64,000 nt of DNA from the human T2T-CHM13v2.0 reference genome, Homo sapiens: the NCBI RefSeq assembly GCF_009914755.1, contig NC_060928.1, one strand, 5' to 3'. Below, piece after piece: positions 2,272 to 10,620 of this stretch (position 1 is the first letter of the stretch; each line of letters begins with the position of its first letter). The position numbers and the translations under genes were made by a program. Under the pieces are notes generated by a model. The model was given only the letters and a program-made list of their open reading frames with translations. It made no database searches and was not told the origin of the DNA.

Positions 2272-3399
2272 AAATGTTTGATACAGTGGAGAATGAACTG
2301 ATCTTACCTTGTGAAACTTGGGGAAAAGACACTTTGGCAAAAATGTGATTCAGAAATGAGCACTTATGAAGTTCCCAAGGAATTGGGCTGAGATAGTAGG
2401 AAGTCTTGTGCTGAGCTCTAAAGGCTGTTTATAAAAAGCAGACGTGAGGAAAAGGCAATTTTTGATAAGAAGTGTAGGAGTGTAAGTATATAAAACAGAA
2501 GAGGATTATGGTCAGGTCACCTGCCTAACTCGAGCAAGGAGTCTGCTAGAGAAAATGGGAAGTAAAATCAGATTATTAGAAAGCTTTGTGTTCTGTGTTA
2601 ATAACGGGAACTCTCTCTGGAGAGAGTTTGAGGAAGATTATTCTAGAAATGTTGTGTCACTTTGGGCCACTTGGCCATATTCCACACTCTGCTCTGTGTT
2701 ATAGGGGACAATTTATAATTGCAACTTCCTTAGGTAATAATAACAGTCTTGGCAACTTGATGTTTTTTTAGGCCCTTCCCATGGATATTCTTTTCATATC
2801 TGTAAGATGTAAATTTTTTTAAAAATATTAGTATTTCTTGAAGGATTAATGGGAGAAACTTTGGAAAATTCCCTACTGCTTAGAAGTGATTTTGTTTGTA
2901 GCATGTAAGATATATATACCTTCTCTTTGCTTTTTTTTCTTTTTCCTTTCTTGGTTTCCACTAAATTCTTAGCCCTAAGTTCCTTGCTTTTTTGTCTCAG
3001 CTTTCTTCTTATATGAAGTATCAAATTTAAAAAAATCTTTAAAAAGCCTACAGAGGGTGATGGAGCTTAGGGATTAGTTCTCATGCCACTTATTTTCCCT
3101 AATTAAGAACTCTGAAATGGAAGTTGAAAATGTTGGTATAACCTTTTTATTAATGGGGAAATGGGGTCATGCCTGCCACTTCCATCTCCACAACAATCCA
3201 TTGTATAAAATGTTAAGTTCACTGGTACTTTTGATTTGAGGGGAGAGACATTTATATTGGATAAGTATATATCAGAAGTCTGTGTCTTTTGAATGGTCTT
3301 CCGAAATTCTTATCTCCATTCTTCTATAATTGTTGAATTATTTTCCTTAAGCTGTACTGCAGAATAACACCTATAAGATAAGCTTTCAAAGTGACTGTG

Positions 3400-3792
3400 T
3401 TAAGCAGCCTTCATTCTCCAAGAAAACCACTTTGTGCCTTCTTTTCTCAAAACCTCACACAACTTCCTCCCCCTCACCATTAGCTTACTAGTATTTCACT
3501 GCAAAAATAAGTCCTCAGAAACCTGCATCATAATCCCGCCAAATCTCCCAATCACCCCCATTAGTCTCATCTAGTCTGCCTTCCCTAGTTAGTATTGATA
3601 AACTCTGTGTGTTCCCATCTAAAGCTAACTTTTCTGCCTGTGATTTGGATATTGTCTCTTTTCAGTAGTTTAAAGATACTTAAACTGCTTCTGCATTTAT
3701 CCCCTATCTCTCCTGCAGCATTAACCTGTCTCTACTAGATCATTCTCACATTCCAAAATTGCTGTAATATCTCCCATAAAAAAAAGAAATCT
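3400..3792 (+). mobile_element. L2 fragment (upstream part of a split element)
   Basis: Pyrimidine-rich L2 ORF-like sequence ending 'gctgtaatatctcccataaaaaaa'. Left boundary approximate. Confidence 0.7.
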
Positions 3793-4002
3793 GTAAATTT
3801 GTTTAAGTTTCTTGTAGATTCTGGATATTAGCCCTGTGTCAGATGGATAGATTGCAAAAATTTTCTCCCATTCTGTAGGTTGTCTGTTCACTCTGATGAT
3901 AGTTTCTTTTGCTGTGCAGAAGCTCTTTAGTTTAATTAGATCCCGTTTGTCAATTTTGGCTTTTGTTGCTATTGCTTTTGGTGTTTTAGTCATGAAGTCT
4001 TT
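3792..4002 (-). mobile_element. Internal L1PA ORF2 fragment (211 bp) with no tail of its own
   Basis: Translates [52 protein letters not shown]. About 94% identical by manual comparison to 5799-6009 in the opposite orientation. Confidence 0.93.
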
Positions 4003-4029
4003 AGCTGGGAGGCAGGAGGAACTTCTCTA

Positions 4030-4600
4030 AGACTCAGGAATTCTACTTTTAGTTATACATATTAAACAATCTCAAATATTGAGGTCATAAGGAAAATATT
4101 ATAAGGTGTTCATTCCAACACTGCAGAGATATTTATAACTGCCAAATAGTAGGATGTATAAGTTGTGGTATATTTATACAGTGAAGTAGTATGCAGCCCT
4201 TAAAATGAATATAGTAGAGCTACTTTCATCAGTGTGGATTTCTCTCAAAAGCATAATGTTGAATTAGAAAAGCAAGGTAAAGTATGATGCATTGAGTATG
4301 ATACTATTTATAAAGAGCTTGAATGCCTGAGAAACAATACTATATCATGTGTATGCCCATACACATGTATAATACATTTTACATGATAATTATAAACACT
4401 GGTTTTAGAACCCTAGGGAAAAAGTGAAGGAAATGGAGTTGGGATGTACTCAACTGTTGGTGTGGGATGTTTTTTCTTTAAAAATGAAGATTGAAACAAA
4501 CATGACGTAAGGGTAAGATCTGATAAAGTTGAGTGGTTGATACACAGGAATTTGTTATTACATACTCTATTTTACAGCTACTTTTGAAATTTTTCTCAGG
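4030..4600 (+). mobile_element. Old L1M (L1ME-like) 3' fragment
   Basis: Degenerate 'gtggtatatttatacagtgaagtagtatgcagcccttaaaatgaat...tctcaaaagcataatgttgaattagaaaagcaag', typical of L1M 3' ends. Boundaries approximate. Confidence 0.65.
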
Positions 4601-4702
4601 TAAAAAGTATAAAACTAACATAATACAACAATTTTTAAAATAAAATGATTGCTACCAAAAAACAACAAAAAAAACCCTTCAGACTGGTAGCTTTAAACAA
4701 CT

Positions 4703-4913
4703 TTAAAGCTTGAGCTCCTTCTAAATTTCCCAAAGTCTTTCAGCACTCTCTTTCAACTGGGCCTCCTCTTCAGAAGTCACCTTTATCTTTATAAGATCTG
4801 TAGTACTATTCTGTCCTAGGATACAAGGAATGCTAAGGAATGTTACTTCATTTATCCCATAAAAGCTCTCAATTATGATGGAAACTGGATGCACCCTCTT
4901 AAGATTATTCAAA
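4703..4913 (-). pseudogene. LDHAL6EP: LDHAL6B-type pseudogene, 3' part
   Basis: Translates [68 protein letters not shown]. Premature TAG at 4721-4723, natural TAA at 4703-4705. Continues exactly where the 5' part stops. Confidence 0.92.
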
Positions 4914-6860
4914 GAGGAAGTCAAATTGTCTCTGTTTGCAGATGACACAATTGTATATTTAGAAAACTCCATCATCTCAGGCCCAAATCTCCTCAAGCTG
5001 ATAAGCAAATTGAGCAAAGTCTCAGGATACAAAATCAATGTGCAAAAATCACAAGCATTCCTATACACCAATAATAGACAAATAGAGAGCCAAATCATGA
5101 GTGAAATTTCATTCACAATTGCTACAAAGAGAATAAAATACCCAGGAATACATCTTAAAAGGGATGTGAAGGACCTCTTCAAGGAGAACTACAAACCACT
5201 GCTCAACGAAATAAGAGGACACAAACAAATGGAAAAACATTCCATGCTCATGAATAGGAATAATCAATATTGTGAAAATTTGGCCATACTGCCCAAAGTA
5301 ATTTATAGATTCAATGCTATTCCCATCAAACTACCACTGAATTTCTTCACAGAATTGTAAAAAACTACTTTGAAGTTCACATGGAACCGCATATCCAAGA
5401 CAATCCTAAGCAAAAAGAACAAAGCTGGAGGCATCACACTACCTGACTTCAAACTATACTACAAGGCTACAGTAACCAAAACAGCATGGTACTGGTACCA
5501 AAACAGATATATAGAACAATGAAACAGAACAGAGGCCTCAGAAATAACATCACACATCTACAACCATCTGATCTTTGACAAACCAGACAAAAACAAGCAA
5601 TGGGGAAAGGATTTCCTATTTAATAAATGGTGTTGGGAAAACTGGGTAGCCATATGCAGAAAACTGAAACTGGATCCCTTCCTTACACCTTATACAAAAA
5701 TTAAATCAAGATGGATTAGAGACTTAAATGTAAGACCTAAAACCATAAAATCCATAAAAGAAAACCTAGGCATTACCATTCAGTACATAGGCATAGGCAA
5801 AGACTTCATGACTAAAACACCAAAAGCAATGGCAACAAAAGCCAAAATTGACAAATGGGATCTAATTAAACAGAAGAGCTTCTGCACAGCAAAATAAACT
5901 GTCATCAGAGTGAACAGGCAACCTACAGAATGAGAGAAAAGTTTTGCAATCTATCCATCTGACAAAGGACTAATATCCAGAATCTACAAAGAACTTAAAC
6001 AAATTTACAAGAAAAAAACAAACAACCCCATCAAAAAGTGGGCAAAGGATATGAGCAGACACTTTTCAAAAGAAGACATTTATGCGGCCAACAAACGTGA
6101 AAAAAAGCTCATCATCACTGGTCATTAAAGAAATGCAAATCAAAACCACAATGAGATTCCATCTCATGCCAGTTAGAATGGCGATCATTAAAAAGTCAGG
6201 AAACAACAGGTGCTGGAGAGGATGTGGAGAAATAAGAATGCTTTTACACTGTTGGTGAGAGCATAAATTAGTTCAACCATTGTGGAAGATAGTGTGGTGA
6301 TCCCTCAAGGATCTTGAACTAGAAATACCATTTGACCCAGCAATCCCATTATTGGGTATATACCCAAAAGATTATAAATCATTCTGCTATAAAGACACAT
6401 GCACACGTATGTTTATTGTGGCACTGTTCACAATAGCAAAGACTGGGAACCAATCCAAATGCCTATAAATGATAGACTGGATAAAGAAAATGTGGCATAT
6501 ATACACCATGGAATACTATGCAGCCATAAAAAAGGATGAGTTCATGTCCTTTGTAGGGACATGGATGAAGCTGGAAACCATCATTCTCAGCAAACTAACA
6601 GAAGAACAGAAAACCAAGCACTGCATGTTCTCACTCGTAAGTGGGAGTTGAACAATGAGAACACATGGACACAGGGAGGGGAACATCACACACTGGGGCC
6701 TGTCAGGGGGTCAGGGGTCATGGGAGGGATAATATTAGGAGAAATGCCTAATGTAGATGACAGGTTGATGGGTACAGCAAACCACCACAGCACGTGTATA
6801 CATATGTAACAAACCTGCACATTCTGCACATGTACCCCAGAACTTAAAGTATAAAAAATA
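4914..6860 (+). mobile_element. 5'-truncated L1 (L1PA7-like): ORF2 RT/C-terminus and 3' UTR
   Basis: Encodes [11 protein letters not shown]...GYKINVQKS...WIKKMWHIYTMEYYAAIKK. The 3' UTR ends ccccagaacttaaagtataaaaaa. The TSD pair is 4901-4913 and 7278-7290. Confidence 0.95.
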
Positions 6861-7277
6861 CTTTTGCACTAACCTAATAGTAAAACATGACTAGATTAAT
6901 CAGCTCATACAATGTGAATTATTGACCAGTATGAAACAGAGACCAAAGTCAGTGCTGGCTACTACTTAGGAGATGCAAAGATAATTCCTCTGATGGATTT
7001 CTAGATTCATTTAATTGCTTAATGACTTAGAGATAATTAATTCTCAACAAATATTCATTTGAAATAAATTCTGACAAGTTGTCCATAATCCTTCCAGAAT
7101 TCAGTAATAAATCAAATGCACCTTTTTTTTTTCTCCTTGTAACTTCCCATTGACAGTGTCATGTCATTAAAACCCAGGCTATGTGTGGCTGCTCTTTCCC
7201 ACTGCAGTGAAAGACATTTCAATGGGAAATGAGTTTGCCTATTAAAAAATGTTTACTGTTGTTTTCTATTAAAAAAA

Positions 7278-8222
7278 AAGATTCTTCAAAATACTTTCTG
7301 TTAAATCAGCTACAGATAGGCCAATGGTCCAATTAGTACAACCTTTCATTTTAACTATCTCATAGCCACAGGCAATCACTTCTTTGTGGACTTTTTCCCA
7401 CTGTTCAGGATCTTTATCAGTTCCTATATCTGAGTTCAGATCCGTCAGAGGGATGCCAGCAATATTGACTCCACTCCACACAGGAATACTTGAGTCCCTA
7501 TGCTGTCCAAGAATCCACCTATGACAGCTTTCAGAGTGGATATCAAGCCTTTGCCCAGTGAAGAAACGGAAATGGGGAGTGTCCAGATTACAGCCACTTC
7601 CAATAACACGGTTTTGGGGAAATACACTCAATTTCCAGAATACATAAGTTACAATATCCAGTAAATTAGAAACTACTATCAGTTTGTGGTGGGGATTGCA
7701 TCGGGTAATACTGGAAATAATTAATTTAAAAATGATCACATTTCACTGGACTATATCAAGGTGTGTTTCTCCTTTTGCTGGAACACCTGCTGTAATAATG
7801 ACTAAGTTGGACTTTGCAGTGACACTGTAGTCTTTGCTGAAAACAATGCTTGGCATTTTTATGGAAGGGCTGCCATGTTGAAGATCCGTTGTCTCACCCT
7901 TCAATTTGCCTTCGTCAACATCCACAAAGGCAAGTTTATCACCCAAACCTTTTAATAAGATGCTGAGAGCACAGGCCATGCCAACTGATCCAGTTCCTAT
8001 AATGGAGATCTTATTGGGATGAGCGGCCCCCTCCAAAGTGAAATTCTTGGCAAGTTCAAGCTTGACAGTCACCATCTTGGAAATGGGAGTGAAGGTCCAG
8101 CCGCCCCTGAGTGGGATGTGTGTGGCCTCATGGGGGCACTGAGCCAGCCCCCAACAAAGGAAATGAGCTCCTGCAGCACCTATTCTCTTGCTGGTGGGCA
8201 GAACTCCTGCAGCTCAGCTCAT
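7278..8222 (-). pseudogene. LDHAL6EP: LDHAL6B-type lactate dehydrogenase pseudogene, 5' part (intronless)
   Basis: One reading frame: a 49-codon extension MS*AAGV...FTPISK, then MVTVK...[12 protein letters not shown]...DLQHGS...IVQ*NV...IGSGCNLD...ESILKNL. In-frame TGA at 8214-8216 and 7743-7745. The family call is firm; the exact symbol is recalled from locus position and is less certain. Confidence 0.9.
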
Positions 8223-9326
8223 GGTCGTTAGCTCACGCAAGAGGCAAATGGATGAAAGCAGCGGCAGAAATCTCCTTGAGGTGTGGAAGAAACCCTGACG
8301 GTTTGAAGGCCTCCTCGCCCTTTGCTACTGTGGCTGCGCAAGGCCACTCCCAGCTCGTGCAGGGCTCACAGAGACCTGGCCCCTTAATATGTTATTTTTA
8401 GTTTTACAAATATGTGGTATTTTTTACACCATTAAGACGGTTCCGAAAAAATGGACTGTGATCATTAAGGCCAAAAGTAATTTTAGCTTTGCCTTTCAAA
8501 GTGCCATATTTTGTTGCTTAGAGAAGCGCTGCACCTTTGCAATTATTTTTGTCATGGTGCTCAAACACGCTGAAACTAAGTACGATAGATGCAAAGACAA
8601 AGAGATGAGAATTCCAATCTCCACTCCACACTTGGACTTTGAAGAAGTTTGACTATGTGAGCTTCTTTTAAAAAGTCAATATTACAATGTGATAATAAGA
8701 CTTGTCCTAACTACTTTACAAGGTTCCTGTGAGAAAGTCAGGGTGAAAAGTCTAGGGAGCTTTAAAAAGAGTATTGTAACTATTTGACAAACTATGTCAC
8801 TGAGTCAGTGACAAAACCAAGTCTTCTGATTTTTCCTTCTTCATGAAAATGATGCATTAAAAATTAAAGAAATAAAAGCTTAGAAGTCCTCAATTATCTG
8901 CTTTTTTGAAGATAAGATAGTCATGGATAAATGCAATCATTCGATAACTAGTAATGTTTAGATAATCTCAAATCCTTCTACCAGAACTTTAATAACATTT
9001 ATTCAAAATCAAATATCTGCCTCTTTCCCCAATCACCATCTCCTTTATAATTAAAAAGTGAGGACTATGAAAAACAAGAAGGCTTAACCCATGAATTAAA
9101 ATGATATTTCTCTAATATACTGAAATTTTGCCTTATGAATGGTTAAACTACATTTTCTTTAAGTTGGCAAGTCTTAATATGTGTTTACCTATTTATATTA
9201 TCCCAAATAAGAAATTTGATGGAATCTTTTCACTTCTCAACCAGTTGTTTAATATTTGGTATCAGGATGCATTCTATTTGTAAATATAATAGTTCTATCT
9301 CAGAAAAAAAAAAAAGAAAGAAATCT

Positions 9327-10620
9327 ATTTTATTCTCTCCTCCCCTAGCTTCCCCATTTCTCAGCTTTTTTTGATAGCAACATTTCTCAAAACAATTATC
9401 TTTACTCTCTGGTGTCCACTGTAACAGCTCTTGTCAAGATCCCCAGCCAGACACAGTGGCTCACGCCTGTAATCCCAGCACTTTGGGAGGCTGAGGCGGG
9501 TGGATCCCGAGGTCAGGAGTTCGAGACCAGCCTGGCCAATATGGTGAAACTCTCTCTCTACTAAAAGACGAAAAAATTACCCAGGCATGGTGATGTGCAC
9601 CTGTAGTCCCAGCTACTCAGGAGGCTGAGGCAGAAGAATCACTTGAACCCGGGAGGCAAAGGTTGCAGTGAGCCGAGATCGCGCCACTGCACCACTGCAC
9701 TTCAACCTGGGCAACAGAGCAAGACTCTGTCTCAAAAAAAAAAAAAAAAAGAAAAGAAAATCCCCAGCACCTCCATCTTGCCAAATTTATTCGTCCATTC
9801 TTAGCTCCCATCTTACCTGAACCTTCAGCAGCCTGTGATTTAACTGATTCACTCTCCTTATTGAGCTGTTTCTTCACCTGGCTACTGGTGAAGTCTTGGT
9901 TTTCCTCCCCTTTTTCAGTGTTCTCTGCCTATATCTTCTCCTATTCCTATACAAATTAGGGTGACCCAGGACTTAACTCTTACCCCTCTGCTCTATCTAC
10001 ACTCACAGCCAGGATTGTGCCATCCTTTCTTATGGTACCAAATACTGTTTACATGGTGATGTCTCTCAAATTTACGTCTTCCCTCTCCGTCTTTCTGCTT
10101 GGGCTTTTGGTAGGTAATTCCTGCCTAAAACTTCCAAAACTCCTTATTGTAGCCTATTGGGTCCTACAATCTGGTTCACCCCTTACCTATGCAACTTCTT
10201 TGCCTGCTGTTTTCTCTCCTTTGTTCCTTCAGCTTCCACCACATTTGGATTCTTTCTTATCTTGTAACTGCCAAGCAGCTTCTTCTCACAAAGTCTTTGC
10301 ATTTCCCATTCTTTTGGCCTAGAATGTTCTTTCCTCCAATTTTTGCATAGCTTGTATCTTTACTCCAGTGTCAAATGTATTTCTTCAGAGGCCTTCCCCT
10401 ATCACCCTGTCTAAGATAGTACCTTTTTTACTTGTTTTATTTTTTTTTCTTAGTACTTATCAGCACTTTATATTTTATTTTTCCTCTGTGGTAATATGAG
10501 TCTAAAGAGGGCATGTAATTAATCTATCCACCCCTGTTTCCCTAAGGCTTATAGTATTGCCTGGCTTATAGTAGATTTTCAACAACTTTTCGTTGAGTGA
10601 ATGAATATATAAATGAATGG
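9327..10620 (+). mobile_element. L2 (downstream part, to the 3' end), interrupted by an Alu
   Basis: Runs from 'ctagcttccccatttctc...gcaacatttctcaaaacaattatct...gctcttgtcaagatc' to the 3' terminus 'gcctggcttatagtag...gttgagtgaatgaat'. Confidence 0.8.
9445..9760 (+). mobile_element. Alu (AluS, Sg-like)
   Basis: Full dimer with A-tail. TSD aagatccccag (9436-9446) / aaaatccccag (9757-9767). Confidence 0.96.

What the first reader, a model, noticed from the sequence alone, without database searches (positions are those of the whole stretch)
4901..7290. Second, nested L1 with a ~410-bp 3' transduction splits the LDH coding sequence
Seen: the L1 ends at about 6860 (aacttaaagtataaaaaa), but the right TSD is not there. 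Non-L1, non-LDH sequence (6861-7270) follows, with ATTAAA at 7241-7246 and an A-tract from 7271. The TSD is AAGATTCTTCAAA (7278-7290), matching AAGATTATTCAAA (4901-4913) at 12/13, at a ctt/aaga site. The duplicated bases are LDH codons (LKNL / LNNL), so the breakpoints are well defined. Inference: this is a classic 3' transduction, and the tag identifies the source L1. With the outer event, it would be a transduction nested inside a transduction.
Basis: partly seen in the sequence, partly recalled or inferred. Interest (0 to 1): 0.7.

Follow-up and report, generated by a model that had tools for sequence, protein, structure and literature searches.

The report
Parentless L1 transduction splits LDH pseudogene
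An old, broken LINE-1 jumping gene sits inside a dead lactate-dehydrogenase gene copy and carries about 410 bases copied from chromosome 3, where no parent LINE-1 is found today, most likely because the parent was lost from the population; it is an ordinary fossil of a known process.

Summary
A 5'-truncated L1 (4914-6858, +), a 410-bp tag (6859-7268), an A-tract and a 12/13 target-site duplication interrupt LDHAL6EP in mid-codon sequence, and other LDH copies show the empty site. The tag has one paralogue, C3:194,927,712-194,928,117 (90%). That site is the donor: it has no poly(A) and runs on upstream.

No L1 lies directly upstream of the donor, none of this age was found in 19 kb, and no sibling carries the tag. 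The tag starts inside an 80-bp MADE1 element. The best-scoring L1, 390 kb away, shares no excess of variants with the copy.

Tag divergence (8.1%) matches twice the L1's private branch (7.8%), so both arrived together, inferred at about 35 Mya. Best reading: a 'parentless' 3' transduction from a source L1 that never fixed. This class is described in primates and dogs. Rivals are a template-switch chimera or later removal of the source.

The nesting in an outer transduction is unproven: a 14/15 outer duplication exists, but no young donor was found. One side lead: the LDH copy has no frameshifts and pN/pS 0.46, so it may have been functional until near this insertion.

The parts
4901..4913 (+). 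Left target-site duplication copy; carries one derived base (4907); its last 3 A's are microhomologous to L1
4914..6858 (+). 5'-truncated dead L1 (end of ORF2 plus 3' UTR plus 6 A), about 9% from its nearest relatives; L1PA7/8-like (label recalled, no subfamily library here); tail lacks AATAAA
6859..6880 (+). Start of the tag: right arm of a MADE1 element, matching the arm of the 80-bp element at the C3 donor
6859..7268 (+). Transduced tag, single paralogue G000:C3:194927712-194928117 (+), 33 mismatches in 408 aligned bases
7241..7246 (+). ATTAAA polyadenylation hexamer, also in the donor, where a U-rich stretch follows the cleavage site
7271..7279 (+). Poly(A) remnant, absent at the donor; last two A's belong to the TSD
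7278..7290 (+). Right target-site duplication copy, ancestral LDH state; inferred nick 5'-TCTT/AA-3' on the minus strand
7278..8222 (-). LDHAL6EP, 5' part of the reading frame; premature stops at 8214-8216 and 7740-7742; no frameshift
   Evidence: gene name from the annotation given
4678..4900 (-). LDH retrocopy, 3' part (last 66 codons, stop, about 25 nt of 3' UTR); outside the annotated span of LDHAL6EP
3778..3792 (+). Candidate outer TSD, left copy (14 of 15 with 9312-9326; A-rich)
3792..4003 (-). Inverted 211-bp L1 ORF2 piece of similar age; possible twin-priming end of an outer event
9304..9326 (+). A-tract and candidate outer TSD, right copy

Best explanation
This is one L1-mediated insertion (L1 3' end plus a 410-bp chromosome 3 tag plus poly(A), inside a 13-bp duplication) that most likely arose by read-through 3' transduction from a source L1 that is inferred to have sat in a MADE1 element on chromosome 3 and to have been lost without ever fixing. 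Shown: the tag is copied from C3:194.93 Mb, in a 165-kb intron of a minus-strand FGF-family gene and antisense to it; it ends 22 nt after an ATTAAA; the donor has no poly(A) and no upstream L1; the insertion sits at an endonuclease-type site in LDH codons; L1 and tag have matching ages. Inferred: a full-length L1 inserted at the A-run in the MADE1 right arm; its transcript ran past its own weak signal to the ATTAAA; ORF2p nicked the LDH copy at TCTT/AA, copied 2.36 kb and joined at 3 nt of microhomology. The daughter then fixed on chromosome 4 while the parent allele was lost. The product is a dead fossil in an SLC4A4 intron.
For: One paralogue at 90% (2 of 2 candidates scored, self included). 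The donor continues into an intact 80-bp palindrome upstream and has no A-tail downstream. No plus-strand L1 hit longer than 23 nt in 9.2 kb upstream and no L1 row in the next 10 kb. Tag divergence 33/408 = 8.1% (95% CI 5.6-11.2) against twice the L1 private branch, 7.8% (6.0-9.9). The tag begins just behind a 10-A run in the donor, an endonuclease-type target, and an Alu with an 18-nt TSD used the other arm of the same element. The L1 tail lacks AATAAA, a minority ending (123 exact matches against 1,204 for the AATAAA-bearing form). The element is length-neutral at 80 bp once the Alu is left out, as an empty site should be. Donors without a parent are common: PMC4862182 (passages) found no clear full-length donor L1 at non-human primate source loci bar one; PMC7980453 (passages) reports 17 of 18 and PMC13141329 (passages) 24 of 27 dog transductions as parentless.
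Against: The source L1 itself is not seen anywhere, and no sibling with the tag was found, so read-through is not demonstrated. The junction has only 6 A's and lacks the C that interrupts the donor's A-run, so one or more A-tract contractions must be assumed. The implied nick (TTTT/CT) is not the best consensus. The donor's 10-A run is itself unusual (0 of 30 sampled arms exceed 5 A's) and a never-fixed source does not explain it. The published parentless counts come from young dimorphic insertions, not 35-My-old fixed ones.
Confidence: 0.68

Rival explanations
1. Template-switch or RNA-level chimera: ORF2p began on a polyadenylated antisense chr3 RNA, copied 410 nt to the A-run, then jumped to the poly(A) end of an L1 RNA. 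No L1 ever sat at chr3.
For: No L1 at the donor. The junction falls in an A-run, which gives pairing with an L1 tail. The L1 3' end is complete and both parts have the same orientation, as switching predicts (PMC13174262, passages).
Against: It needs an independent plus-strand transcript; the host gene is on the minus strand and no other copy of such an RNA was found. In the passages and section read from PMC13174262, the U6 and mRNA partners sit 5' of the L1, the reverse of this order. Parentless transductions are common, so the missing L1 is expected without it.
Confidence: 0.15
2. True 3' transduction, but the source L1 was common or fixed and was later deleted, leaving its poly(A) as the 10-A run in the donor MADE1.
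For: The donor's right arm has a pure 10-A run where 30 of 30 sampled arms have at most 5 A's, and the daughter lacks the same core letters.
Against: It needs a small target-site deletion and then a clean A-to-A deletion that happens to be length-neutral. An Alu tail with 10 A's lies 44 nt upstream and could have templated the run (family D3). Plain A-tract drift is also possible.
Confidence: 0.12
3. Two separate insertions: a trans-mobilised or orphan tag first, then an L1 landing exactly at its 5' end.
For: The L1 ends in its own short A-run before the tag.
Against: One TSD pair brackets both parts and none brackets the L1 alone. Ages match. The tag would have to start by chance at the donor's A-run.
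Confidence: 0.03
4. The L1 at C3:194,536,316-194,537,073, 390 kb upstream on the same strand, is the source, separated from the tag by splicing or a rearrangement.
For: It is the best non-self hit among 40 scored of 11,264 candidates, by 3 bits.
Against: In 1,645 four-way columns it shares 2 splits with the window copy against 6 and 3 for two unrelated controls, and 0 doubletons in the eight-way alignment. It has the fewest private changes (49 against 62-64), so it scores well with most copies. It has its own tail and an unrelated flank.
Confidence: 0.02

Closest known systems
L1 3' transduction, 'parentless' class (PMC7980453, PMC13141329; class 1 source loci of PMC4862182)
   Same: L1 plus unique tag plus poly(A) inside one TSD; tag maps to one locus with no adjacent L1; downstream poly(A) signal used.
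   Different: Those sets are young dimorphic insertions where the parent may still segregate. This one is about 8% diverged, so the parent is likely gone for good.
Catalogued CHM13 L1 3' transductions (bioRxiv 10.1101/2021.07.12.451456; 183 in the top confidence bin, passages read)
   Same: Same genome and same structure.
   Different: The top bin has identified parents. Whether this locus is in a lower bin (Table S13) could not be seen.
L1 chimeric insertions by template switching or RNA ligation (PMC13174262)
   Same: Two same-strand RNA-derived parts inside one TSD.
   Different: In the parts read, U6 and mRNA partners lie 5' of the L1; here the non-L1 part is 3' and ends at a genomic poly(A) signal.
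MADE1 miniature element (PMC1784062: 80 bp, two 37-bp inverted repeats)
   Same: The donor element is 80 bp without its Alu and has 22-nt perfect terminal inverted repeats; intact relatives match Rfam mir-548.
   Different: The donor copy is split by an Alu and has a 10-A run in the right arm; only 22 nt of it were carried to chr4.

Membership tests
L1 target-primed insertion | Target-site duplication around the whole insert | tested here: met
   13 bp, 12 of 13; 5 of 20,000 by chance; empty site in LDH paralogues
L1 target-primed insertion | Endonuclease-type site and 3' poly(A) | tested here: met
   5'-TCTT/AA-3' (a variant of TTTT/AA); A-tract 7271-7279 absent at the donor
L1 3' transduction | Non-L1 sequence between L1 3' end and poly(A) that maps to another locus | tested here: met
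   One paralogue at C3, 90% over 408 of 410 bases
L1 3' transduction | Poly(A) signal near the tag's end, present in the donor | tested here: met
   ATTAAA 22 nt upstream of the end of homology, with U-rich sequence downstream in the donor
L1 3' transduction with identified source (classic) | Same-strand related L1 directly upstream of the donor | tested here: not met
   None in 19 kb upstream; the L1 390 kb away is not related
Parentless 3' transduction | Donor maps uniquely and is an empty site | tested here: met
   80-bp MADE1 continuous through the tag's start
Parentless 3' transduction | A source L1 once existed at the donor | not testable with these tools
Transduction family with siblings | Other L1 copies with the same tag | tested here: not met
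   Searches found none; the search lists lower bounds only
Template-switch chimera | Independent transcript ending at the tag's poly(A) site | not testable with these tools
   No expression data; the host gene is on the opposite strand
Outer 3' transduction (nesting) | TSD plus L1 plus a donor of matching age for the cargo | tested here: inconclusive
   TSD 14 of 15 and inverted L1 piece present; cargo paralogues only 73-86% and on three different chromosomes
MADE1 | 80 bp with terminal inverted repeats, abundant | tested here: met
   80 bp, 22-nt perfect arms, 1,956 exact motif matches, 3 of 3 intact relatives tested match mir-548 at 89-96 bits
L1PA7/L1PA8 subfamily | Diagnostic 3' UTR positions against subfamily consensus | not testable with these tools
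   No repeat library; label rests on about 9% pairwise distance and recall

The most novel reading that the evidence does not exclude
The L1-plus-tag insertion is at or near the lesion that killed a once-functional anthropoid LDH retrogene (no frameshift in 370 codons, pN/pS 0.46). The 10-A run in the chr3 MADE1 is the poly(A) scar of the removed source L1. The whole unit sits inside an older 5'-inverted L1 event whose donor has also vanished. Together they would give a datable three-layer record of gene death and source loss.
Probability: 0.1. Interest if true: 0.45.

Novelty: new member of a known kind. Interest (0 to 1): 0.2.

Why it matters
As it stands it matters little: it is one more fossil 3' transduction, in an intron, inside a pseudogene. 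It is a clean teaching case that a tag can point to a donor whose L1 is gone, so catalogues that demand an upstream parent miss such events. It would matter more if primate orthologues show that this insertion ended a working LDH retrogene, or that the donor's A-run is a scar of L1 removal. It also adds sense-strand poly(A) hexamers about 3.6 kb before an SLC4A4 exon; any effect is untested.

Tried and rejected
1) Source L1 directly upstream of the donor: none; the only long L1 nearby is an old minus-strand copy (73%) downstream of the tag.
2) The L1 390 kb upstream as source: rejected. I compared 7 of the 39 non-self hits (7 of the top 8; one minus-strand hit was skipped).
3) C8:78.94 Mb as a sibling: it matches only donor sequence starting about 40 nt past the tag's end (82% over 258 bp), with no L1 and no tail.
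4) Window 8446-9302 as an orphan transduction of the old L1 at C8:87.62 Mb: rejected, because window 8268-8413 also matches the far side of that L1, so the window holds the empty-site version. No LDH coding remnant was found in 4.6 kb further upstream at C8.
5) Rfam over 2500-10500 gave only Alu-related matches.
6) The tag as a repeat with its own TSDs: only its first 22 nt are repeat-derived.
7) Dating the donor's Alu against the event: 14 of 243 non-CpG differences (5.8%, CI 3.2-9.5), which cannot order it against the L1.
8) Four paper look-ups found nothing held (Szak 2003 twice, Pickeral 2000, the journal version of the CHM13 repeat paper).

Full report
Observation. The window shows, on the + strand, a 13-bp duplication (4901-4913 and 7278-7290, 12 of 13 identical), a 5'-truncated L1 (4914-6858), 410 bp of other sequence (6859-7268) with ATTAAA at 7241-7246, and an A-tract at 7271-7279. 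Such a match arose in 5 of 20,000 random position pairs. On the - strand the LDH frame breaks after ESILKNL and resumes at KRVHPVS; Pfam Ldh_1_C positions 2-104 lie on one side and 108-163 on the other. Four of five LDH paralogues checked show the uninterrupted site by exact motif and the fifth aligns across it. The right TSD copy keeps the ancestral base. The inferred nick is 5'-TCTT/AA-3', and the 5' junction shares 3 A's with L1. This is one target-primed insertion.

The donor. A search of the whole genome with the tag scored 2 candidates and both matched: the window and C3:194,927,712-194,928,117 (+), 90% over 408 bases. C3 is the donor. It has no A-tail where the window's begins, it has U-rich sequence after the cleavage point, and it runs on upstream. 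FGF-family exons on the - strand lie at C3:194,866,360 and C3:195,031,240, so the donor is intronic and antisense to that gene (FGF12 by recall).

The source L1 is missing. There is no plus-strand L1 hit longer than 23 nt in 9.2 kb upstream and no L1 row in the next 10 kb. Instead the tag begins in the right arm of a palindrome with 22-nt perfect inverted ends, split by an Alu with an 18-nt TSD. Without the Alu it measures 80 bp. Its end motif has 1,956 exact matches in the genome, and 3 of 3 intact relatives tested match Rfam mir-548. PMC1784062 (passages) describes Made1 as 80 bp with two 37-bp inverted repeats and as the source of mir-548. No sibling carries the tag; these searches give lower bounds.

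A false lead. The best non-self L1 hit lies 390 kb upstream of the donor on the same strand (40 scored of 11,264 candidates). I compared it with 6 controls from the same list. It shares 0 doubletons with the window copy in the eight-way alignment and 2 four-way splits against 6 and 3 for controls. It has the fewest private changes and its own flank. It is not the parent.

Age. The tag differs from the donor at 33 of 408 bases (8.1%, CI 5.6-11.2). Twice the L1's private branch is 7.8% (64 of 1,645; CI 6.0-9.9). The match says both parts arrived together. With recalled primate neutral rates this is roughly 30-40 Mya, which fits L1PA7/8 (label recalled). The MADE1 sets an upper bound: Hsmar1 entered primates about 50 Mya (PMC9062482, start of abstract in the listing).

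Mechanism. Most likely (0.68) an active L1 inserted at the A-run of this MADE1, read through to the ATTAAA, and seeded the chr4 copy; the daughter fixed and the parent allele did not. The L1 tail lacks AATAAA, an ending found 123 times against 1,204 for the AATAAA form; this is weak support, since tails also decay after insertion. Missing parents are ordinary. PMC4862182 (passages) found a full-length upstream L1 for 3 of 6 human calls and no clear one at non-human primate source loci bar one. PMC7980453 (passages) and PMC13141329 (passages) call such cases parentless, 17 of 18 and 24 of 27 in dogs. Against this reading: the parent is not seen, the junction needs A-tract contraction, and those counts come from young insertions.

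Rivals. Template switching from an antisense chr3 RNA to an L1 tail (0.15) needs no lost element but needs a transcript for which I have no evidence; in the passages and section 12 read from PMC13174262 U6 and mRNA partners lie 5' of the L1. Later deletion of the parent (0.12) would explain the donor's 10-A run, where the first 30 listed arms (28 elements, all on C1) have at most 5 A's; a neighbouring Alu tail or drift could also explain it. Two separate insertions (0.03) do not fit the single TSD.

The outer event. A 14/15 A-rich pair lies at 3778-3792 and 9312-9326, next to an inverted 211-bp L1 piece and an A-tract. The piece is 90-94% identical to four L1 relatives. The enclosed sequence has no donor of that age. 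Window 4025-4657 matches C5:33.7 Mb at 73-74%. Window 8268-9302 matches C8:87.6 Mb at 73-77% and spans an old L1 and Alus that entered C8 later. The LDH copy is 14% from the C11 exons and 16-22% from other retrocopies. A young outer transduction would need its whole donor to have been deleted. It is possible but not shown.

A side result on the LDH copy. Against the intact C15 copy it has one 3-nt deletion and no frameshift, with two premature stops. On its branch, 25 synonymous and 43 non-synonymous changes over 213 codons give pN/pS 0.46, against 0.76 and 7 frameshifts for the C11 retro-pseudogene and 0.72 in neutral simulations. The substitution signal is marginal (one-sided p 0.03-0.05). 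The frameshift deficit is strong if the whole branch were neutral (p about 2e-4), but modest for the time since the L1 arrived, when about 2-3 would be expected. So the copy, or a lost parent of it, was constrained for roughly half its branch. The insertion may lie near its death, but the order of lesions cannot be set here.

What is in print. A search for LDHAL6EP, LDHAL6E and three sister names returned 6 papers, none containing the first two terms. The CHM13 repeat preprint lists 183 top-confidence L1 3' transductions (passages); its supplements are closed, and Szak 2003, Pickeral 2000 and the journal version were not held, so this locus may already be listed there.

Verdict. A real, previously unremarked member of a known kind: a parentless L1 3' transduction. 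Interest 0.2.

Noticed in passing
window 4678-4900 and 7278-8222 (-): The LDH retrocopy has no frameshift and pN/pS 0.46 on its branch, which suggests it or a lost parent was functional for part of its history. The annotated span of LDHAL6EP (7278-8280) omits the 3' part at 4678-4900.
   Followed up: partly
L002:1486-1498 (C3 donor): A pure 10-A run replaces the family core of the MADE1 right arm; 0 of 30 sampled arms have more than 5 A's there.
   Followed up: partly
window 8268-9302 versus G000:C8:87614802-87622911: Old paralogue (73-77%) of the region upstream of the LDH copy, including part of its GC-rich 5' end. At C8 a near full-length old L1 and several Alus inserted later, and no LDH coding remnant was found in 4.6 kb upstream.
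   Followed up: partly
window 4025-4675 versus G000:C5:33725200-33726134: Old paralogue (73-74%) that ends in AATAAA and an A-rich tail abutting the truncated LDH 3' UTR head to head; may be a separate old retrocopy.
   Followed up: partly
window 3778-3792, 3792-4003, 9304-9326: Candidate outer TSD (14 of 15) with an inverted L1 ORF2 piece and an A-tract; no donor of matching age found.
   Followed up: partly
L079:1824-2078 (G000:C8:78938624-78938878): A 255-bp stretch 82% identical to donor sequence just past the tag's poly(A) site, with no L1 or tail beside it; origin unexplained.
   Followed up: partly
L073 (G000:C8:56556701-56558850): A control L1 with a 5' inversion (323 bp inverted next to the forward part), a typical twin-priming product.
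   Followed up: no
L054 and L067: Two of the 30 sampled MADE1 arms have long A-tails inside the element's centre, so MADE1 is hit by retrotransposition elsewhere too.
   Followed up: no
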